Origin: a virus
IMG/VR virus record: IMGVR_UViG_3300020041_000020
Location: 1-6,067 of that record
Reading direction: 5' to 3' (one strand)
Length of the DNA: 6,067 bases
Shown here: positions 1 through 5,691 of the stretch, piece after piece
How positions within the stretch are numbered: the stretch's first letter is position 1
Layout: the number at the start of each line of letters is the position of its first letter
The notes under the pieces: model-generated
What the model saw: the letters and a program-made list of their open reading frames with translations, nothing else
What the model was told of the DNA's origin: nothing
The model's database searches: none
Made by a program: the position numbers and the translations under genes

Positions 1-121
1 TAGTTGCGTAGGCCCGAGTCATCTTATTTCCTCCGCTTTTTTGTTTGATTCGACGCCCCAAGGTGCTGAATTTTGGCTTAAAGAGTCTGATGCTTGGAAG
101 CGTTTTTATTCTGATTTTCAA
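1..121. repeat. Terminal direct repeat, copy 1. It is identical to 5947..6067 and reflects linearisation overlap of a circular genome.
   Basis: Reading both ends base by base, 1..121 (tagttgcgtaggcccgag...ctgattttcaa) matches 5947..6067 with no mismatch seen. An ORF runs straight through the junction. The repeat offset gives a unit length of 5,946 nt. Confidence 0.95.
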
Positions 122-133
122 TTAAAACTTTAA
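2..133 (+). CDS. 3' portion (last 43 codons plus TAA stop) of the wrap-around 104-aa basic hypothetical protein that starts at 5765
   Basis: The frame is continuous with 5765..6067 across the circular junction (position 5948 equals position 2). After the repeat it reads tta aaa ctt TAA, with the stop at 131..133. Codons mostly end in T, as in the hallmark genes. Confidence 0.65.
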   Translation, partial: SCVGPSHLISSAFLFDSTPQGAEFWLKESDAWKRFYSDFQLKL

Positions 134-144
134 TTTTCATCGTC

Positions 145-468
145 ATGACACAGATTCATGTTGTTATTCGTCGTGTTAGTCCGGCTCTTAAAGTCGACCT
201 TGTCCAGGTAGGTCGCCTCGTAGATGGCCGTTTTGATCCTCTTCCCTCCGGCGTCGTTGAGGATCTCCCTATTGCGCGTTTTCTGAAGAGCTCGCACATT
301 AGCGATTCGCTCTATGTTGATCATTCGGAAGTTTCCGAACTTGTTACCATCTGTGGTAGCCTGCCTCATTTCCTAATCGATTTCTTCGATAATACGCTTG
401 TCCTTATGTTCGATTTTAATCTTGATCACGATGAAGTCACGTCGGAAGAAAAAGGGGAAGGGAACTAA
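145..468 (+). CDS. Hypothetical acidic protein, 107 aa. It may be a scaffolding-type protein, but its function is unknown.
   Basis: The ATG lies 11 nt after the upstream stop. In the codons I tallied by hand, about 46% end in T and about 7% in A, matching the VP1 pattern. Net charge is about -10, with an acidic tail DHDEVTSEEKGEGN. It is on the same strand as every hallmark gene. Caveat: a codon-aligned antisense ORF (130..369) exists, so strand assignment is not certain. Confidence 0.45.
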   Translation: MTQIHVVIRRVSPALKVDLVQVGRLVDGRFDPLPSGVVEDLPIARFLKSSHISDSLYVDHSEVSELVTICGSLPHFLIDFFDNTLVLMFDFNLDHDEVTSEEKGEGN

Positions 469-512
469 GGTTGTGACCCGACCTCTTGGTGGAAGAGTTC
501 TTTAACTCATTT

Positions 513-605: not shown

Positions 606-806
606 ATGGATTTTTTTGATTTCCGTCCTAGATTTTCGCCATTGATTGATAGTATTCCTTATCGCTTTTCCATTGGCGCATATCGTGGTCGAAAGCGAGT
701 TGTTGTCGCTTGGTTTGCTGACGAGAATTCCGCGAATGATTATCTTGTTCGCTGTCGTCTTGATCATCCTTGTATTAAATTCGACTGTCTTAAAAGTTTC
801 CTCTAA
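606..806 (+). CDS. Hypothetical small protein, 66 aa, translationally coupled to Rep
   Basis: Strong T-ending codon bias (gat ttt ttt gat ... cgt cct). The stop TAA (804-806) overlaps the VP4 ATG (806-808) as TAATG. The protein is mildly basic (YRGRKRVVVAWF). I recognise no family. Confidence 0.6.
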   Translation: MDFFDFRPRFSPLIDSIPYRFSIGAYRGRKRVVVAWFADENSANDYLVRCRLDHPCIKFDCLKSFL

Positions 807-1876
807 TGCCTTGTTCGTCGCCTATATGGATCCGCAATCGTCGTTATTTTGACAAGAAGAATCCCTGTCGTAACGGCTCTGATGTCGCTAAATCTGCTCT
901 GGCTCTTCGTCCTTGGGATATCGCCCGTCAGTGGATTATGGTTCCGTGTGGTAAGTGTGACGAATGCTTGCGTCGTCAGCGTAATGATTGGTTTGTGCGA
1001 TTAGAGCGCGAGCTTGCTTGTTGTAAAGCTAATAGTCAACAGGCTATTTTCATTACGATAACGATTGCTCCGAAGTATTATAATGAAGCTCTGCTCGACC
1101 CCTCTCGATTCATTCGTCGATTCAACGAGCGCCTTCGTCATAAACTCGGCCATTCCTTTAAACATGCTTTCTTTCAGGAATTTGGGACTCATCCTGAAAC
1201 GGGAAACGAACCTCGACTACATTTCCATGGTTTTCTCTTTGCCACGAATACCCTTTATAACACAATTCGCTCGGCCGTCCGAGACTTAGGTTTTGTCTGG
1301 TTAGCGAAGGCTACTCATAAGCGTGCTCGCTACTGTGTTAAGTACGTTACTAAACAAATTCAGTTCAACCCCGAAGAGATTTCGGATAAATATGTTACTG
1401 TAGATGGAAACCTTACACCTTTATCTTGCCTCCTCCAACATCGCCGTTATACGCGAAAATTCGTATCTGCTGGCGTCGGTGATTTTCTTGGTTATATGCC
1501 TCGTCCTTCTAATCGTGTTTCGTCGTGGTCTTATTTCGATCTTGAGAGGCGTGTCAATTATAATTACTCGATTCCTCGATACTATCTTAAATATCTTGAA
1601 CCGGAGGACGAGGTTGTTCGCTCGATTGCCTCTGCTGATGTCTATGCACGTTTTAGCAAGTCTTCTTTGGTTAAGCGTGTTGTTTCTTTGTGTATTGAGC
1701 GGTTCTCTCTCGATTCCGCCGTTTCCCGTAGAGCGTCTTACACGTGGGAACAAAAGCAAATGATGCGTTTTTCCGCCTCTTCTCGGAAAATGCCCGACTT
1801 TGACCCTCCTACTTGGCTGGATTTGGATATTCTCCATTTTTGGCGAGATCATTACAAACTTCAACTAATTATTTAA
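806..1876 (+). CDS. VP4: Replication initiation protein VP4: rolling-circle HUH endonuclease, phiX174 gpA-like
   Basis: 356 aa. The N-terminus MPCSSPIWIRN is typical of microvirus VP4. Cys cluster PCGKCDEC (C48/C51/C54). RCR motif 1 FITITI (aa 82-87). HUH motif RLHFHGFLF (H139/H141, nt 1220-1228). Twin-tyrosine motif YCVKYVTK (Y176/Y180, nt 1331-1354) has the YxxKYxxK spacing of gpA-type enzymes. Confidence 0.93.
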   Translation: MPCSSPIWIRNRRYFDKKNPCRNGSDVAKSALALRPWDIARQWIMVPCGKCDECLRRQRNDWFVRLERELACCKANSQQAIFITITIAPKYYNEALLDPSRFIRRFNERLRHKLGHSFKHAFFQEFGTHPETGNEPRLHFHGFLFATNTLYNTIRSAVRDLGFVWLAKATHKRARYCVKYVTKQIQFNPEEISDKYVTVDGNLTPLSCLLQHRRYTRKFVSAGVGDFLGYMPRPSNRVSSWSYFDLERRVNYNYSIPRYYLKYLEPEDEVVRSIASADVYARFSKSSLVKRVVSLCIERFSLDSAVSRRASYTWEQKQMMRFSASSRKMPDFDPPTWLDLDILHFWRDHYKLQLII

Positions 1877-1879
1877 TTT

Positions 1880-3685
1880 ATGGGAAAACAACCCTTTATT
1901 TCACATGCTGTAAACGGCTACTCTCGCTACGATGTTCCAGAGAGTAAAGCGTTTACTTGTACGCCGGGTATTCTTTATCCGGTGCGAATTGATTTTATTA
2001 ACGCCCGCGATCGTGTTTCTATCGAGCAGGGTATCGATGTTCGGAGTAATCCTTTGGCTGTTCCGACGTTTAATCCCTACACTATTCGTCTTCATCGTTT
2101 TTGGGTGCCTCTTCAGTTGTACCATCCGGAGATGAGGACGAATAGCAGTAAGTTTGACATGAACAATTTGAGCACGAATTGGGTTTGTTCTACTATGACC
2201 TCGACCGGCGCATTGAATTCTAACCGTTTCGGTGCATCGTATATAAATTCCCTTTTTTCTTGGCTTCGCATTGGAAATAAAAGTAATGCAGGCGGTAATC
2301 CTTTGACTTCTGTGTCGCTTCCGTCGAACGCTTCGATAACGCAATGGTCTAACGCCGATACTTATTTGGCTTATTGGGATATCGTCCGAAACTATTACAG
2401 TTATTCGCAGTGGAGCCTCTATTCTTTTGCGTGGCCTATGGCGAATAGACTTCTTTATTCTGACTCTTCGTTTGGTCTTGACTCGGACAATCCGACCAAC
2501 TCGCGGTTTTTTACGCAATGTTATGGAAACCTTGAATTTTTGGACGCGTTTTTCGAGAGCCAATTTTATCCCTCGGCTGTTACCTCTACCAACAATACGT
2601 TTAACCGTGGTAATCTTTTCTTTCAGATTATTTGCTCGGATTTAGATAGCATGGGTAGTACTGGAGACGGTTTTCCTGTTAACAGCACTTATCCGGGTTC
2701 AAGTTTGCTCGGCTCTACCGGTATTGAATCTCAGACTCTTGCGACTCCTTCGGATACCGCCAACTCTGCCTTGTCTTATTTCTTAGTCGCTCATCCTATG
2801 GCGGTCGTTCCCTCGAATCCCGACCGATTTAGTCGTCTTATCCCTACTGGTTCGACCTCCGCTGTTTCGATGTCTGGCGTTAGCACTATCCCTCAGCTGG
2901 CCATTGCTTCGCGGCTTCAGGAATATAAGGATTTGCTTGGTGCTGGTGGTAGTCGTTATTCGGATTGGCTTGAGACGTTTTTTGCCTCTAAAATTGAGCA
3001 CGTAGACCGACCTAAGCTTCTTTTTAGCGCTTCGCAGACTATTAACGTTCAGGTTGTTATGAATCAAGCTGGATTCAATAATTTCGGTGGAGATTCGTCC
3101 ATGGGTCCTCTTGGTCAGCAGGGTGGTGCTATCGCTTTCAATGATAGATTAGGCCGCCGTCAATCTTATTATTTTCGCGAGCCCGGCTATATGATTGATA
3201 TGCTAAGTATTCGACCTGTTTATTACTGGAGCTTTGTTAAGCCGGACTATCTTAACTACCTGGGTCCCGACTATTTCAACCCTATTTATAACGATATTGG
3301 CTATCAGGATGTTTCTTCGGCTCGGATAGTTTTTAACGGAAATGCGGGTGCTGTATCCGCCTCCGAGCCGTGTTTTAACGAGTTTCGAGCATCTTATGAT
3401 GAGGTTCTTGGACAACTCCAGGCTTATCCTCAGCCCGAGTCGCCGGGCGCGTCCTACGTTCCTCTTTATTCTTATTGGGTGCAGCAACGTTCCGTCAAAC
3501 TATCTGATGGCTCTGGAAGCCTGCCTGTGTCTCATTACTACCCGATACTTTTTACCGATATGTTGCAGGTTAATTCTCCCTTCTTTTCTAATGTAGAGGA
3601 TAATTTCTTTGTGAACCTTTCCTATGCTGTACAGAAGAAGAGTCTTATTAACAAAACCTTTGCAACTCGTTTGTCTAATCGCTAA
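1880..3685 (+). CDS. VP1: Major capsid protein VP1 (Microviridae F-like jelly-roll capsid protein)
   Basis: 601 aa. It carries the conserved microvirus MCP blocks in the usual order: GILYP...DRVSI...VRSNPLAVPTF...HRFWVPLQL (N-terminal), AYWDIVRNYY, IPQLAIASRLQEYKDLLGAGGSRYSDWLETFF, and FREPGYMIDMLSIRPVYYW. It starts 3 nt after the VP4 stop. Confidence 0.93.
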   Translation: MGKQPFISHAVNGYSRYDVPESKAFTCTPGILYPVRIDFINARDRVSIEQGIDVRSNPLAVPTFNPYTIRLHRFWVPLQLYHPEMRTNSSKFDMNNLSTNWVCSTMTSTGALNSNRFGASYINSLFSWLRIGNKSNAGGNPLTSVSLPSNASITQWSNADTYLAYWDIVRNYYSYSQWSLYSFAWPMANRLLYSDSSFGLDSDNPTNSRFFTQCYGNLEFLDAFFESQFYPSAVTSTNNTFNRGNLFFQIICSDLDSMGSTGDGFPVNSTYPGSSLLGSTGIESQTLATPSDTANSALSYFLVAHPMAVVPSNPDRFSRLIPTGSTSAVSMSGVSTIPQLAIASRLQEYKDLLGAGGSRYSDWLETFFASKIEHVDRPKLLFSASQTINVQVVMNQAGFNNFGGDSSMGPLGQQGGAIAFNDRLGRRQSYYFREPGYMIDMLSIRPVYYWSFVKPDYLNYLGPDYFNPIYNDIGYQDVSSARIVFNGNAGAVSASEPCFNEFRASYDEVLGQLQAYPQPESPGASYVPLYSYWVQQRSVKLSDGSGSLPVSHYYPILFTDMLQVNSPFFSNVEDNFFVNLSYAVQKKSLINKTFATRLSNR

Positions 3686-3697
3686 ACTATTAATTTT

Positions 3698-3994
3698 ATG
3701 GCACTTGATTGGTTACTCGAGGATGTTCCCGCGTATATTTCGCGCGGTCAGCGTATCCTTTCGGTTCTCGATGGCTCTGGCTCTGTCGAAGTTCTCCCCG
3801 GTCGTCCGGATGTGGCGGCCGAGCCCTCTGACTTCGATAAGGGCGAAAGGTTTAACCCTGAGATTGATTTCGATCCTAATTCTTTCTCTCGTATGGATAA
3901 GTTCGATGGTCTCGAAATAGGACAAGAACTTATTGATTCAGAGATAGATAGGGCAAAAGCTCCTTCAAAGTCTACTGATTCTGAAGAAAAATAG
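3698..3994 (+). CDS. Hypothetical acidic protein, 98 aa. It may be a scaffolding-type protein, but its function is unknown.
   Basis: The ATG is 12 nt after the VP1 stop, on the same strand. Net charge is about -12 (13 D, 10 E), with a D/E-rich C-terminal half. I recognise no family. Confidence 0.6.
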   Translation: MALDWLLEDVPAYISRGQRILSVLDGSGSVEVLPGRPDVAAEPSDFDKGERFNPEIDFDPNSFSRMDKFDGLEIGQELIDSEIDRAKAPSKSTDSEEK

Positions 3995-4024
3995 TATGTC
4001 CTTTACTTGACGATATATGTTACG

Positions 4025-4102
4025 TGCGCGGACCCCTCTTGCGAGAGTTCGTGAATCGCTAGAGGTTATTGGTAACGACTGCAGGAGAGGCCGCGCATTT
4101 TT
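4025..4102 (+). terminator. Long-range GC-rich inverted repeat closing a roughly 73-nt structured segment, followed directly by T5. Terminator-like or an ssDNA structural signal.
   Basis: TGCGCGG (4025-4031) pairs with CCGCGCA (4091-4097), 7 bp. After a 3-nt bulge, CCTCT (4035-4039) pairs with AGAGG (4086-4090). Two weak 4-bp inner hairpins: 4041-4044/4056-4059 and 4065-4068/4073-4076. TTTTT at 4098-4102. The element sits in the intergenic gap between the 98-aa ORF and the lipoprotein ATG. Confidence 0.35.
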
Positions 4103-4127
4103 CTATCGTTCTTTAAATTTTATTTTT

Positions 4128-4319
4128 ATGTCTGATATTAAACAACCGTTCTATAAGTCGAAAGCTTTTTGGACGCTTATTTCTTCTATTGTTGCCGCAT
4201 TGGCCGCTTTTTTTCTTGCTTCATGTTCGGCTCAAGCTAGAATGCAGCGTAGCGGCGTACACATTGACACTGTGCGTGTTGATTATATCATTCGTTCTAA
4301 CAATTTAACTAGCTTTTAG
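4128..4319 (+). CDS. Small predicted lipoprotein: 63-aa precursor, 31-aa mature peptide. Function unknown; candidates are lysis or superinfection exclusion.
   Basis: MSDIKQPFYKSK (basic n-region), AFWTLISSIVAALAAFFLA (h-region), then lipobox L-A-S-C (aa 30-33, nt 4215-4226), giving a signal peptidase II type signal. The mature peptide is CSAQARMQRSGVHIDTVRVDYIIRSNNLTSF. The stop TAG is 1 nt before the VP2 ATG. I prefer the start at 4128 to the track start at 4017, because 4017..4127 overlaps the structured region and would bury the signal peptide 37 aa inside the protein. Confidence 0.6.
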   Translation: MSDIKQPFYKSKAFWTLISSIVAALAAFFLASCSAQARMQRSGVHIDTVRVDYIIRSNNLTSF

Positions 4320-4320
4320 T

Positions 4321-5691
4321 ATGCCTGCCCCTGTTGCCCCTGCTGCTGCATCTTTTGGTCAAGCTCTCGGTCATTCCGCCGCCTCTACAGGCATTACTGG
4401 TTTAATTTCCGGTGCTTTTGGCCAGCTTTTCGGCGGCATGAATGCCCGTCGTCAGTGGCGTTATCAGCAAAAGCAAATGAAGCTTCAACAACAATACGCT
4501 TTGGAGCAGATGCAAAAACAGTCAGAGCTCTCTTATGCTAATTGGCAGAAGCAGTTTGATTATGAGAACGCCTATAATGATCCTTCGAAGGTTTTCGACC
4601 GTTATTTGAAAGCAGGTGTCTCGCCCGCCGCCGTGCTCGGCTCTTCCGGCGTTGGCGTTAACGCTACGATGTCTGGCGGCTCTGCCTCTATGCCTTCCGC
4701 TTCCGGCCCTTCGGGTGGTTCGCCGATTTCTCCTGCTGGTTTTGCTCCTGCTGATCCTACCTCTATTGCACAGAACATGGTTGCGCAGTCGACTGTTGAT
4801 CGTAATACAGCCGCCGCAAATCGTGACAATGCCGAGGCTCGTTCAATCGATGATCAAAATGTTGGTAATCAGCTATATACGGCTATGGCGTCTGCTCGTG
4901 TAGCCTTAGACCAGGCTGTCGCTAAACATAATTTGGCTTCGGCAGATGTTCTTAGAGTCCAGGAGGATATTGAGAAGAATGCTCGTTTTATTTCTGATTC
5001 TACTCTTTTGAGCGTTATTGATGAAAAGAAGAATCAAGCTCGACTTACTGCTGTGCAGGTTCGTCGTTTGGAGATTGAGAATGAGCATTTGGGTGCTTTG
5101 ATGTCGGCTCAGGCTTTTATGATGAATACCCAGGCTGTCCTTAATGAAATTTTAGGGGAACAGTCTCGTGAAGTTATAGAGTCTTTGCGTCTTAATAATC
5201 TCGATACCGCCAATGAGCTTGAGCGTAATTGGGAGAAGCGTTTTGAGATTGAGATCCCCAATCCTCAGTATTCAGCGAATCTTAGGAGTAATAATCCGAT
5301 TACTCGCGGCAATCCTGGTCCTCGGTCTTTTAAAGTCTCGATGTCTCTTAAGGATTTTTATGATAAAACTATTGTAAATGAGGCGAATGCTTCTGATTTT
5401 CTTCCTGAGCAAGCTCGTGTTGCGCTTCGCAATGCTAAAATTGATCCGTATATCGAAATCTCGAAAGCTCTGGTTGGCTTAGCCGGTAGTGTCGCTGGCG
5501 CAGGAATAATTCGCGGAGGTATGTCTCGTGCGGCCGGCACTATTTCTGCTGGTGGTTCTTCGAATAGTTCTGCAGGTTCTTCGTTGACGACTCGTTACGA
5601 TTCGCGTGGAAACGTTGTTGGTTACGCGAAAACTGAAATGTCCCGTAGTGGCCATTCGAGTACGTACAATAATTCTCGTAGATCTCGTTGA
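4321..5691 (+). CDS. VP2: Minor capsid / DNA pilot protein VP2 (phiX174 H-like function)
   Basis: 456 aa, downstream of VP1 as in gokusho- and alpavirus-type genomes. The Gly/Ala-rich N-terminus is followed by a Q-rich segment and the block YNDPSKVFDRYLKAGVSPAAVLG, which resembles the conserved AGLNP-type VP2 motif (KAGVSP at nt 4609-4626). A G/S/A/P low-complexity linker, a long helical region that looks heptad-like (roughly aa 150-310) and a G/S-rich tail follow. Confidence 0.8.
   Translation: MPAPVAPAAASFGQALGHSAASTGITGLISGAFGQLFGGMNARRQWRYQQKQMKLQQQYALEQMQKQSELSYANWQKQFDYENAYNDPSKVFDRYLKAGVSPAAVLGSSGVGVNATMSGGSASMPSASGPSGGSPISPAGFAPADPTSIAQNMVAQSTVDRNTAAANRDNAEARSIDDQNVGNQLYTAMASARVALDQAVAKHNLASADVLRVQEDIEKNARFISDSTLLSVIDEKKNQARLTAVQVRRLEIENEHLGALMSAQAFMMNTQAVLNEILGEQSREVIESLRLNNLDTANELERNWEKRFEIEIPNPQYSANLRSNNPITRGNPGPRSFKVSMSLKDFYDKTIVNEANASDFLPEQARVALRNAKIDPYIEISKALVGLAGSVAGAGIIRGGMSRAAGTISAGGSSNSSAGSSLTTRYDSRGNVVGYAKTEMSRSGHSSTYNNSRRSR

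What the first reader, a model, noticed from the sequence alone, without database searches (positions are those of the whole stretch)
4128..4319. Tiny lipoprotein gene wedged between VP1 and VP2: candidate lysis or superinfection-exclusion factor in a microvirus with no recognisable lysis gene
The 63-aa product has a textbook signal peptidase II signal: a Lys-containing n-region, a hydrophobic core of about 19 residues, and the lipobox LASC. That lipobox is in the style common in Bacteroidales lipoproteins. Cleavage leaves a 31-aa mature lipopeptide, CSAQARMQRSGVHIDTVRVDYIIRSNNLTSF. There are no acidic residues just after the Cys, so I would not expect surface export under the Bacteroidota lipoprotein export signal rule. 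The gene ends 1 nt before the VP2 ATG, so it is embedded in the structural operon. I do not know of such a gene as a standard microvirus component, and no lysin or phiX E-like gene is evident here. Small lipoproteins of this size do have precedents: colicin lysis/bacteriocin release proteins (mature about 27-35 aa), phage o-spanins such as Rz1, and receptor-blocking exclusion lipoproteins such as T5 Llp. Which role applies, if any, is an open hypothesis.
Basis: partly seen in the sequence, partly recalled or inferred. Interest (0 to 1): 0.72.

Follow-up and report, generated by a model that had tools for sequence, protein, structure and literature searches.

The report
Conserved tiny lipoprotein gene in gut microviruses
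A real, strongly conserved 63-codon gene in a large group of gut microviruses of Bacteroidales (Alistipes-type) bacteria encodes a lipid-anchored 31-residue beta-hairpin peptide that most likely acts on the host cell envelope, either to release progeny or to block re-infection, but its role has not been tested.

Summary
ATG 4128 to TAG 4319 encodes a 63-aa prolipoprotein with lipobox LASC and Cys33, ending 1 nt before the VP2 ATG.

It is a real gene. Across 72 related genomes the variation sits at third codon positions, and dN/dS is about 0.11, the same as the capsid. It is present in every complete relative.

The family has at least 393 plus 418 protein clusters. Cys33, Gly43, His45 and Asp47 are invariant, and 100 of 104 members pass a PROSITE-type lipobox rule. 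AlphaFold2 predicts a signal helix followed by an amphipathic beta-hairpin, with the invariant G-x-H-x-D in the turn.

Relatives include prophages in Alistipes, so the host is a Bacteroidales diderm. No known family matches by sequence or fold, and I found no paper describing it. One GenBank record already calls it "lipoprotein".

A 119-codon ORF encoding two membrane helices (1404-1763) is overprinted in VP4, and VP4's synonymous variation collapses exactly there.

The role stays inferred:
- Exit or lysis factor of the colicin-lysis-protein type: about 0.4.
- Superinfection exclusion: about 0.3.
- Spanin: unlikely.

In the Alistipes prophage clade the same frame runs on into a basic J-like tail. 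I cannot explain this.

The parts
4128..4319 (+). LIP gene: 63-codon prolipoprotein ORF including the TAG stop
   Evidence: Searches give the ORF. Third-codon-position variability is 0.45-0.56, against 0.05-0.15 at positions 1 and 2, across 72 relatives. dN/dS is about 0.11. There are 393 homologous clusters. The start codon is ATG in 90 of 90 relatives.
4128..4223 (+). Signal peptide, residues 1-32: n-region with K5, K10 and K12, then a hydrophobic helix at about residues 12-32
   Evidence: AlphaFold2 predicts a helix at 12-32 with pLDDT above 90. The KD hydrophobic span is 12-36. The sequence is unusually conserved for a signal peptide: K12, F14, W15, A23, A24, L25 and F29 are at least 90% conserved, and dN/dS is 0.088.
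4215..4226 (+). Lipobox L30-A31-S32-C33. Cys33 is the predicted lipidated +1 residue.
   Evidence: Cys is invariant in alignment A1. The -1 residue is always S, G or A. 100 of 104 family members pass the PS51257-type rule. The commonest lipoboxes are LASC (43) and LSSC (32).
4224..4316 (+). Mature 31-residue lipopeptide. Predicted amphipathic beta-hairpin: strands at residues 35-42 and 50-57, turn at 43-49 (nt 4254-4274) carrying the invariant G43, H45 and D47.
   Evidence: One search gives the AlphaFold2 model (mean pLDDT 82). One search gives the invariant columns. One search shows the alternating hydrophobic and polar faces, 4 K/R against 2 D/E, no Pro and no second Cys. dN/dS of the core is 0.088.
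4317..4323 (+). TAG-T-ATG junction between the LIP stop and the VP2 start
   Evidence: One search shows the junction. The gap is 1 nt in 69 and 2 nt in 6 of 90 relatives. That it implies translational coupling or co-expression with VP2 is an inference.
4024..4102 (+). Conserved structured non-coding element immediately upstream. An 8-bp GC-rich closing stem (4024-4031 with 4091-4098) encloses inner helices and is followed by a T5 run. It looks like a terminator or attenuator, or else an ssDNA origin hairpin.
   Evidence: The element is about 88% identical across relatives with no codon periodicity. RNAalifold finds 20 pairs, 7 with compensatory changes. The fold z-score is -2.5. Rfam has no match. 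Megablast finds this stretch alone in otherwise unrelated microviruses (H24-H26).
4321..5691 (+). VP2 (DNA pilot protein), the gene downstream of LIP
   Evidence: PHROG 8689 'pilot protein for DNA ejection', E = 1e-7. VP2 varies from 42% to 100% identity among relatives whose LIP is almost unchanged.
1404..1763 (+). ORF-X: a 119-codon membrane-protein ORF overprinted in the +1 frame of VP4. It is a rival lysis candidate, or a possible partner of LIP.
   Evidence: It is open in all 72 aligned relatives, apart from assembly duplications and stops 2-3 codons early. VP4 third-position variability is 0.12-0.30 inside 1391-1750 and 0.33-0.61 outside. It has two hydrophobic spans. AlphaFold2 predicts helices 2-68 and 74-98 plus a basic disordered tail. 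Only 4 database proteins match and none is named.

Best explanation
LIP is a genuine core gene of a large clade of gut microviruses that infect Bacteroidales. The only host shown is Alistipes.

Proposed pathway:
1. The 63-aa precursor is exported by Sec.
2. It is diacylated at Cys33 and cut by signal peptidase II.
3. This leaves a 31-residue lipid-anchored, cationic, amphipathic beta-hairpin on the periplasmic side of a membrane. It has no Bacteroidota surface-export signal.
4. The invariant G-x-H-x-D turn engages a conserved host envelope component, not a phage protein.

The gene is made at a low level together with the pilot protein VP2, downstream of a terminator-like structure.

The role I commit to is an exit factor. 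Like the colicin lysis (bacteriocin release) lipoproteins, the lipopeptide destabilises the envelope late in infection so that virions escape. Its unusually conserved signal helix may contribute as well. It may work together with the overprinted membrane protein ORF-X.

What is shown: the gene is real, the lipoprotein signature is present, the gene is conserved, one host is known, and the hairpin is a prediction.

What is inferred: processing, localisation, the target and the exit role.
For: The gene is real and constrained:
- Codon-position pattern and dN/dS of about 0.11, equal to VP1.
- Present in all complete relatives. The single miss, L032, is a contig that breaks inside the locus.

Lipoprotein signature:
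- Cys33 is invariant, the -1 residue is always S, G or A, and 100 of 104 members pass the rule.
- The parts are modular. The same signal and Cys occur with unrelated mature parts (L038, L061, L067, L079, L092-94). The same mature part occurs with other signals (P0148, P0159, P0166).

The target is likely a host factor, not a phage protein:
- LIP is 74.5% identical between the window and an Alistipes prophage whose VP1 and VP4 are only about 27-28% identical.
- LIP is unchanged while VP2 ranges from 42% to 100% identity.

Host: the Alistipes montrealensis prophage L096, and 'hypothetical protein [Alistipes sp.]' on contigs of 60-660 kb.

Arguments for an exit role:
- No muralytic domain in any window ORF scanned, and no M15 peptidase in any of the 105 LIP-bearing loci.
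- LIP-less Bacteroidales microviruses, including the cultured phiHBP1 and more than 100 database records, carry an M15 endolysin-like gene. In five of the six M15-bearing genomes scanned no lipobox ORF was found on the coding strand; bajarodmic virus 1011 (L110) gave one pattern match, an unexamined 56-aa ORF inside its replication-initiator gene. In the three M15-bearing microvirus records inspected the M15 gene sits in the VP2-VP4 interval, which is where the prophage clade keeps LIP.
- The mature size of 31 aa lies within the 27-35 aa range the first-stage reader quoted for colicin lysis proteins. The signal peptide is sequence-conserved (dN/dS 0.088), and from my own knowledge colicin lysis protein signal peptides are stable and functional.
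- The gene sits in a low-expression position behind a stem plus T-run.
Against: - There is no functional test of any kind.
- ORF-X is a more canonical single-gene-lysis or holin-like candidate in this genome. That removes the need for LIP in lysis.
- No lipoprotein single-gene lysis protein is mentioned in the two Sgl papers checked.
- There is no sequence or fold relation to colicin lysis proteins or to any other family.
- Sharing of one lipoprotein across very different phages, and replacement of the mature part in a sub-lineage, are also what receptor-blocking exclusion proteins show.
- In the temperate clade the gene follows an HTH regulator gene.
- The complementary distribution with M15 is confounded by phylogeny: LIP occurs in two clades and M15 in others.
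- In the Alistipes clade the protein is about 200 aa with a J-like basic tail. A simple release-peptide model does not explain this.
Confidence: 0.4

Rival explanations
1. Superinfection-exclusion or receptor-masking lipoprotein, working like T5 Llp, phi80/N15 Cor, or the TP-J34 Ltp injection blocker. The periplasm-facing lipopeptide would bind a conserved host outer-membrane receptor or entry factor. Infected or lysogenic cells, and their debris and vesicles, would then no longer take up or inactivate microvirus particles.
For: - From my own knowledge, most characterised small phage lipoproteins outside lysis cassettes are exclusion factors.
- LIP is shared at 55-75% identity by two microvirus clades that are otherwise about 27% identical, as cor is among FhuA-using phages.
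- The mature part is swapped in a sub-lineage while the signal is kept.
- The gene is adjacent to the entry protein VP2.
- In the Alistipes prophages it is the first ORF after an XRE-type HTH gene.
- There are weak, non-significant hits of 4 of 35 members to a PADLOC defence-candidate model, PDC-M02A (best E = 7e-4).
Against: - The gene is present in every complete genome of a 6-kb virus and is as constrained as the capsid.
- LIP type A does not co-vary with the hypervariable VP1 regions or with VP2.
- There is no similarity to Llp, Cor or Ltp families in Pfam or PHROGs.
- No evidence of expression in lysogens.
Confidence: 0.3
2. Another envelope-directed role. One version is an inserted-loop inhibitor or activator of a periplasmic host enzyme, such as a peptidoglycan hydrolase or synthase, a Bam/Lpt/Lol component or a defence factor. 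Another is a membrane-tethered accessory of genome delivery or packaging, linked to the J-like basic peptide to which it is fused in the prophage clade.
For: - The invariant G-x-H-x-D sits in a protruding hairpin turn, and position 46 is often H or C.
- The LIP-long fusion to a basic tail is kept open in many lineages that are less than 50% identical. The chance expectation is 3-11% per lineage.
- In the window that tail is a separate 24-aa ORF under selection in its own frame.
Against: - No homologue of known function exists.
- The 63-aa stand-alone form is sufficient in most genomes, and several prophage-clade-like genomes also have a stand-alone LIP of about 60 aa.
- This hypothesis is too broad to be predictive.
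Confidence: 0.2
3. Spanin-type component. Either an o-spanin (Rz1-like) that fuses the outer membrane to the inner membrane with a partner, or, for the long form, a unimolecular spanin like T1 gp11.
For: - It has a lipoprotein signal and is small.
- The long form has an N-terminal lipobox plus a C-terminal hydrophobic and basic end.
- VP2 immediately downstream has an N-terminal hydrophobic segment and Gln-rich helices.
Against: - No endolysin or holin cassette is present.
- The mature part has no Pro and no second Cys, and is a predicted beta-hairpin.
- M15-carrying microviruses show no LIP homologue and no credible lipoprotein ORF; the only pattern match is an unexamined 56-aa ORF within the rep gene of L110.
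- The C-terminal hydrophobic stretch of the long form is only 9-17 residues and contains Pro. It lies where selection acts on the other reading frame.
- LIP does not co-vary with VP2.
Confidence: 0.05
4. Not a cleaved lipoprotein. The N-terminal helix would be a permanent membrane anchor, and the peptide would act inside the inner membrane like phiX174 E or levivirus LysM.
For: The helix is sequence-conserved well beyond what export requires. It is retained when the C-terminal part is replaced.
Against: The invariant Cys with S, G or A at -1, placed exactly at the helix end, holds in more than 100 members. The mature part also occurs behind unrelated signal helices that keep the same lipobox.
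Confidence: 0.05

Closest known systems
Colicin lysis / bacteriocin release proteins (Pfam PF02402 Lysis_col; e.g. ColE1 Kil, cloacin DF13 BRP)
   Same: - Very small prolipoprotein with an SPII signal.
- The mature lipopeptide is about 30 residues.
- The signal peptide is itself conserved.
- The gene is placed behind a terminator-like structure in the operon of the product to be released.
   Different: - No sequence match.
- It is encoded by an ssDNA phage of Bacteroidales, not an enterobacterial plasmid.
- The mature part is a predicted beta-hairpin with an invariant G-x-H-x-D turn.
- No lytic activity has been shown.
T5 Llp and the Cor proteins of phi80, N15 and HK022 (receptor-blocking exclusion lipoproteins)
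   Same: - Small phage-encoded lipoprotein that faces the periplasm.
- Shared among otherwise dissimilar phages.
- The gene lies next to entry or adsorption genes.
   Different: - About half the mature size.
- No sequence or PHROG relation.
- Universal and capsid-like in its constraint.
- No co-variation with the variable capsid regions.
- No receptor is known.
Lambda Rz1 and other o-spanins; T1 gp11 u-spanin
   Same: An outer-membrane-type lipoprotein signal on a very short phage protein. The long form has lipobox-to-basic-C-terminus polarity.
   Different: - No i-spanin partner, endolysin or holin.
- No Pro-rich region and no disulfide Cys.
- No real C-terminal transmembrane domain.
phiX174 E and other single-gene lysis proteins (amurins)
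   Same: A small membrane-targeted protein of a microvirus that lacks a muralytic enzyme. It has a conserved hydrophobic helix.
   Different: - LIP has its own non-overlapping coding space, whereas E is overprinted in D. In this genome it is ORF-X (1404-1763) that is arranged like E.
- No lipoprotein Sgl is mentioned in the two Sgl papers checked.

Membership tests
Bacterial prolipoprotein (signal peptidase II substrate; PROSITE PS51257-type rule) | Positively charged n-region followed by an uncharged hydrophobic h-region | tested here: met
   K5, K10 and K12 are present. The KD span is 12-36. AlphaFold2 predicts a helix at 12-32.
Bacterial prolipoprotein (signal peptidase II substrate; PROSITE PS51257-type rule) | Lipobox [LVI...][AST...][GAS]-C with the Cys at residues 15-35 | tested here: met
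   The lipobox is LASC with Cys33. 100 of 104 family members pass the rule, and -1 is always S, G or A.
Bacterial prolipoprotein (signal peptidase II substrate; PROSITE PS51257-type rule) | Cys conserved among homologues | tested here: met
   It is invariant in A1, which holds 35 sequences down to 39% identity. It is kept when the mature part is replaced.
Bacterial prolipoprotein (signal peptidase II substrate; PROSITE PS51257-type rule) | Actual diacylglyceryl modification and LspA cleavage | not testable with these tools
   This needs palmitate labelling and globomycin. SignalP and LipoP were not available here.
Colicin lysis protein / BRP (PF02402) | Sequence membership in the family profile | tested here: not met
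   LIP has no Pfam hit at E <= 0.1.
Colicin lysis protein / BRP (PF02402) | Mature lipopeptide of about 27-35 residues | tested here: met
   The mature product is 31 residues after Cys33.
Colicin lysis protein / BRP (PF02402) | Causes quasi-lysis or release, with phospholipase activation | not testable with these tools
   Requires an expression experiment.
Two-component spanin, o-spanin subunit | Cognate i-spanin gene (N-terminal TMD plus periplasmic coiled coil) embedded, overlapping or adjacent, within a lysis cassette that has an endolysin | tested here: not met
   The neighbours are p98 and the virion pilot protein VP2. No muralytic domain is present.
Two-component spanin, o-spanin subunit | Periplasmic part that is Pro-rich, low in secondary structure and has Cys for disulfide links | tested here: not met
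   There are 0 Pro and no Cys other than +1. A beta-hairpin is predicted.
Unimolecular spanin (T1 gp11 type), for the 190-217 aa long form | C-terminal transmembrane domain | tested here: not met
   The hydrophobic stretch is only 9-17 residues and contains Pro. In the window the equivalent stretch is not selected in that frame. The middle of the long ORF is selected in the overlapping frame.
Llp / Cor superinfection-exclusion lipoproteins | Sequence membership in the family | tested here: not met
   No PHROG or Pfam hit. No BFVD fold match outside its own family.
Llp / Cor superinfection-exclusion lipoproteins | Gene linked to the receptor-recognition gene and co-varying with it | tested here: inconclusive
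   The gene is adjacent to VP2. However, LIP type A is unchanged over VP2 identities of 42-100% and VP1 identities of 66-91%.
Llp / Cor superinfection-exclusion lipoproteins | Blocks the receptor or DNA entry | not testable with these tools
   Requires infection assays.
phiX174 E-type amurin | Overprinted in another gene | tested here: not met
   A single-frame codon periodicity holds across 4141-4320. By contrast ORF-X, at 1404-1763, does meet this feature.

The most novel reading that the evidence does not exclude
LIP is the first lipoprotein-type single-gene lysis effector. It would be a lipid-anchored beta-hairpin 'protein antibiotic' whose invariant G-x-H-x-D turn blocks a conserved periplasmic step of envelope biogenesis in Bacteroidales, such as lipid II use or the Bam, Lpt or Lol machinery. 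This would explain how a large group of non-phiX microviruses without a muralytic enzyme leave their host. In the prophage clade, the fused cationic tail would be a second envelope-active module.
Probability: 0.2. Interest if true: 0.85.

Novelty: new variant of a known kind. Interest (0 to 1): 0.62.

Why it matters
How microviruses other than phiX174 leave their hosts is unknown. These viruses are among the most abundant phages of the mammalian gut.

This work defines two testable candidates in one 6-kb genome:
- LIP, a universally conserved 31-residue lipopeptide.
- ORF-X, an overprinted membrane protein.

It also links them to a culturable host genus, Alistipes, through intact prophages.

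If LIP is a lysis effector, it points to a new druggable envelope target in Bacteroidales. If it is an exclusion factor, it is the first described for Microviridae, and it bears on phage-host dynamics and on vesicle or debris decoys in the gut. Either way the gene should be annotated. At present it is labelled 'hypothetical', missed altogether, or called with a spurious 37-codon N-terminal extension.

Tried and rejected
Searches that gave nothing beyond the family itself:
- Pfam, PHROGs, NCBIfam and PADLOC gave no significant family for LIP, ORF-X, p98, p107 or p66. Only sub-threshold hits appeared: a YgdI/YgdR signal region and PDC-M02A, matched by 4 of 35 members with best E = 7e-4.
- A PDB sequence profile search gave nothing.
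- Foldseek against PDB and BFVD returned only its own family.
- Rfam gave no match in the window.
- Literature searches and targeted reads of the Alpavirinae, Microviridae diversity, Sgl, ICBM5 and phiHBP1 papers found no description of a microvirus lipoprotein.

Ideas rejected:
- The 100-aa form starting at ATG 4017.
- A u-spanin reading of the long form.
- An o-spanin partner role for M15 endolysins. M15-bearing microviruses show no LIP homologue and no credible lipoprotein ORF, and LIP-bearing ones have no M15.
- Co-variation of LIP with VP2 or VP1.
- A prophage context for the window's own clade. The 12-kb contig L113 is a two-copy concatemer.
- phiHBP1, the cultured B. fragilis microvirus, has no LIP.

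Limit: the single genome-contig scan used only one peptide pattern and found one prophage. Host breadth is therefore under-sampled. One search adds further Alistipes contigs.
Full report
WHAT THE WINDOW IS

The 6067-nt window is essentially a whole microvirus genome with all genes on the + strand.
- VP4, the replication initiator, lies at 806-1876 (PF23343, PHROG 942).
- VP1, the capsid protein, lies at 1880-3685 (PF02305, PHROG 514).
- An acidic 98-aa ORF, p98, lies at 3698-3994.
- The flagged ORF lies at 4128-4319.
- VP2, the pilot protein, lies at 4321-5691 (PHROG 8689).
- Small ORFs lie between VP2 and VP4.

Megablast finds only partial matches of 73-87% identity to faecal Microviridae from pig, rodent, lemur and human.

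THE OBSERVATION

TAG-T-ATG leads into VP2.

A lipobox ORF of 50 aa or more appears in about 11% of shuffled windows, so the case rests on comparison with relatives.

IS IT A GENE?

Yes. The evidence is as follows.
- A search of 5.8 billion proteins returns 393 clusters. The best 120 are 86-98% identical and sit on contigs of at most about 12 kb (most about 6 kb or shorter fragments). One is named 'MAG TPA: lipoprotein [Microviridae sp.]'.
- I fetched 80 IMG/VR relatives by VP1, at 67-91% identity. LIP is found in 79 of them. The exception, L032, is a contig that ends in the upstream element and restarts inside VP2, so the locus falls in the assembly gap.
- In a 73-genome alignment, variability over 4141-4320 is 0.45-0.56 at third codon positions and 0.05-0.15 at positions 1 and 2.
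- Nei-Gojobori dN/dS is about 0.11 for LIP (signal 0.088, mature core 0.088). For comparison, VP1 is 0.10 and VP2 is 0.29.
- The start codon is ATG in 90 of 90 relatives. The gap to VP2 is 1 nt in 69 and 2 nt in 6.
- The alternative 100-aa reading from ATG 4017, which many gene callers report, is wrong. Positions 4021-4127 are uniformly conserved without codon periodicity. Many relatives have a stop 4 codons upstream of the ATG, or carry the same DNA in another frame.

IS IT A LIPOPROTEIN?

Every computational criterion is met.
- A full HMMER scan of 1.84 billion representatives finds 54 clusters down to about 40% identity.
- In an alignment of 35 diverse members, Cys33, Gly43, His45 and Asp47 are invariant. 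K12, F14, W15, A23, A24, L25 and F29 are at least 90% conserved. There is no indel between the Cys and the Gly.
- 100 of 104 members found in the fetched loci pass a PS51257-type rule. The -1 residue is always S, G or A.
- The architecture is modular. A sub-lineage (L038, L061, L067, L079, L092-94) keeps the signal and the Cys but carries an unrelated or very divergent mature part. P0148, P0159 and P0166 carry the usual mature part behind different signal helices with the same S-C junction.
- AlphaFold2 on the alignment (mean pLDDT 82) gives a helix at 12-32 and a beta-hairpin at 35-42 and 50-57. The invariant G-x-H-x-D lies in the turn.
- The strands alternate hydrophobic and polar or basic residues. 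The peptide has 4 K/R against 2 D/E, no Pro and no second Cys.
- There are no acidic residues in the first five positions after the Cys. Under the Bacteroidota lipoprotein export signal rule, which I cite from my own knowledge, the peptide should stay on the periplasmic side.
- The A/T-rich, Shine-Dalgarno-less leader also fits a Bacteroidota host. That too rests on my own knowledge.

HOST AND DISTRIBUTION

One scan of GTDB species genomes found an intact prophage in Alistipes montrealensis (L096). Its gene order is: HTH regulator, LIP, VP4, VP1, a 112-aa ORF, VP2. It lies between a HIT-family gene and a formate/nitrite transporter gene. IMG/VR loci L083 and L084 have the same flanks.

A search with that prophage's LIP returns 418 clusters. 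Many lie on contigs of 60-660 kb, and one is named 'hypothetical protein [Alistipes sp.]'.

This prophage clade shares only about 27-28% identity with the window in VP1 and VP4, but 74.5% in LIP. LIP is therefore by far the most conserved protein between the two clades. It also sits at a different place: between VP2 and VP4 in the prophage clade, and between p98 and VP2 in the window's clade. Horizontal transfer, or exceptional constraint by a host target, would each explain this.

Within the window's clade, LIP is nearly unchanged while VP2 identity ranges from 42% to 100% and VP1 from 66% to 91%. So LIP does not track the virion proteins.

In GenBank phage records, 32 microviruses from pig, civet, musk deer, rodents, lemurs and tortoise carry it. 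It is always annotated 'hypothetical', left unannotated, or hidden under a mis-framed VP2 call.

WHAT ELSE IN THE GENOME BEARS ON FUNCTION

(a) There is an E-like candidate after all. ORF 1404-1763 is 119 aa and lies in the +1 frame of VP4.
- It is open in all aligned relatives.
- VP4 third-position variability drops from 0.33-0.61 to 0.12-0.30 exactly over 1391-1750.
- Inside the overlap, the VP4 first position, which is the third position of ORF-X, is the most variable.
- It has two strong hydrophobic spans and is predicted as a helical hairpin with a basic disordered tail.
- Gene callers almost never report it: only 4 database entries match.

(b) No muralytic enzyme is encoded.
- No Pfam or PHROG hit points to one.
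- None of the 105 LIP-bearing loci has an M15 peptidase.
- The cultured B. fragilis microvirus phiHBP1, and more than 100 other microvirus records, carry an M15 endolysin-like gene. In the three M15-bearing microvirus records inspected it lies between VP2 and VP4.
- Five of the six M15-bearing genomes scanned have no lipobox ORF on the coding strand; L110 has one unexamined 56-aa pattern match inside its rep gene.
- This complementary distribution is suggestive but confounded by phylogeny.

(c) Upstream of LIP lies a conserved structured element at about 4024-4102.
- An 8-bp GC closing stem encloses inner helices and is followed by T5.
- Seven pairs show compensatory changes.
- The fold z-score is -2.5, and Rfam has no match.
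- If it is a partial terminator, as after phiX174 genes (my own knowledge), then LIP and VP2 are made at a lower level than VP1 and p98.

MECHANISM

Shown or strongly supported:
- The gene is real and under purifying selection.
- It carries an SPII-type signal with an invariant Cys.
- A short amphipathic hairpin with an invariant turn is predicted.
- It is co-located, and probably co-translated, with VP2.
- The host is in Bacteroidales.
- The target is more likely a host component than a phage one.

Inferred: the role.

I rank an exit or lysis function of the colicin-lysis-protein type first, at about 0.4. My reasons are these:
- The gene is universal and as constrained as the capsid in a 6-kb genome.
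- No muralytic gene is present, whereas LIP-less relatives have one.
- The mature size and the conserved signal helix match the behaviour of release lipoproteins.
- The gene sits in low-expression positions in both clades.

Superinfection exclusion of the Llp, Cor or Ltp type comes second, at about 0.3. Precedent favours it. So do the sharing of LIP across unrelated phages, the swapping of the mature part in one sub-lineage, the temperate lifestyle, and the position next to an HTH gene in the prophages. The lack of co-variation with VP1 and VP2, and the universality of the gene, count against it.

Spanin models fail their defining tests. See the membership table.

COMPARISON WITH KNOWN FAMILIES

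LIP works like, at most, a bacteriocin release protein or an Llp/Cor protein. It is a member of neither.
- There is no profile, PDB or fold match.
- None of the microvirus or Sgl papers searched mentions a lipoprotein.

UNEXPLAINED

In the Alistipes clade the LIP frame does not stop after the hairpin.
- It continues for about 130 codons across an overlapping 118-137-aa gene.
- It ends, just before VP4, in RRGGR(R/K)GKxRPKxTKxxPLGGSHL.
- Codon-position counts show selection in the LIP frame for the first 62 codons and the last 25 codons. In the middle, selection acts on the overlapping frame.
- Stops in that +1 frame are rare: 2-3% per codon, because third positions are T-rich. This gives a 3-11% chance per lineage of staying open.
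- Even so, essentially all lineages stay open, including ones less than 50% identical. Openness therefore looks selected.
- In the window, the tail is a separate 24-aa ORF at 431-505, MKSRRKKKGKGTKVVTRPLGGRVL. It is under selection in its own frame. Its ATG aligns with a GTG in several prophages.
- By my recollection of the phiX174, G4 and alpha3 J sequences, the tail resembles the J DNA-packaging protein. I did not test this.
- Several prophage-clade-like genomes have a stand-alone LIP of about 60 aa, so the short form suffices.

VERDICT

The finding is real, widespread and essentially undescribed. Its biochemical class is clear and its role is open.

Noticed in passing
window 1404-1763 (+), inside VP4 (806-1876): A 119-codon ORF in the +1 frame of VP4 encodes a protein with two hydrophobic helices and a basic tail. 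It is open in all relatives, and VP4 synonymous-site variability collapses exactly over it. It appears to be an unannotated overprinted gene, and a candidate E-like or holin-like lysis protein.
   Followed up: yes
window about 4024-4102 (+), within the conserved block 3961-4127: This is one of the most conserved non-coding stretches of the genome. It forms a multi-helix structure closed by GTGCGCGG/CCGCGCAT and followed by TTTTT, with 7 covarying pairs. It is found alone in otherwise unrelated microviruses (H24-H26). It could be a terminator or attenuator, or a complementary-strand origin. About a third of relatives carry an extra structured insert of about 100 nt between it and LIP.
   Followed up: partly
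window 431-505 (+): A 24-codon ORF, MKSRRKKKGKGTKVVTRPLGGRVL, is under purifying selection in its own frame (dN/dS about 0.10). It overlaps the end of the 107-aa ORF at 145-468. Its size and layout resemble the J DNA-packaging proteins of phiX174, G4 and alpha3. None of the annotated relatives' records inspected lists an ORF at this position.
   Followed up: partly
L096 6977-7585; L082 1512-2114; L083 2432-3025; L098 4688-5320: In Alistipes prophages and their free relatives, the LIP frame continues over an overlapping gene into the J-like tail, giving ORFs of 190-217 aa (418 clusters). The open frame appears to be selected, although the middle part evolves under the other frame.
   Followed up: partly
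L096 (Alistipes montrealensis NZ_JAGYXY010000001, locus 6101-11793): An intact microvirus prophage lies between a HIT-family gene and a formate/nitrite transporter gene. It starts with an XRE-type HTH gene that is also present on circular free genomes of 5.6-5.9 kb (L085, L088). It could serve as an experimental system.
   Followed up: partly
window 606-806, 145-468, 3698-3994 (+): Three further conserved ORFs of unknown function (66, 107 and 98 aa) show clear codon periodicity. The acidic 98-aa one, after VP1, is probably the scaffolding protein. None has any family match.
   Followed up: partly
window 4017-4127: Gene callers frequently extend LIP to 100 aa from ATG 4017 (54 of the 120 listed database entries). 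The extension is the translated non-coding element and is not conserved as a reading frame.
   Followed up: yes
L106 (phiHBP1, PV598014) 84-488 (-); L110-L112: The cultured B. fragilis microvirus, and more than 100 other microvirus records, carry an M15 peptidase (endolysin-like) that has no signal peptide. None of the LIP-bearing loci does. The distribution is complementary but has not been corrected for phylogeny.
   Followed up: partly
L113 (ENA scaffold, 12408 nt): This contig is a two-copy concatemer of the microvirus genome with two different VP1 variants (607 and 599 aa). It is either an assembly chimera of co-occurring strains or a replicative multimer.
   Followed up: no
P0199: One LIP-long cluster is named 'flagellar biosynthesis protein FlhB' by JGI. 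This is almost certainly a mis-annotation.
   Followed up: no
window 2161-2340, 2461-2520, 2641-2760, 3421-3540 (VP1): These are hypervariable, indel-rich blocks in VP1 (identity 0.41-0.53). They presumably form surface loops. They vary independently of LIP.
   Followed up: no
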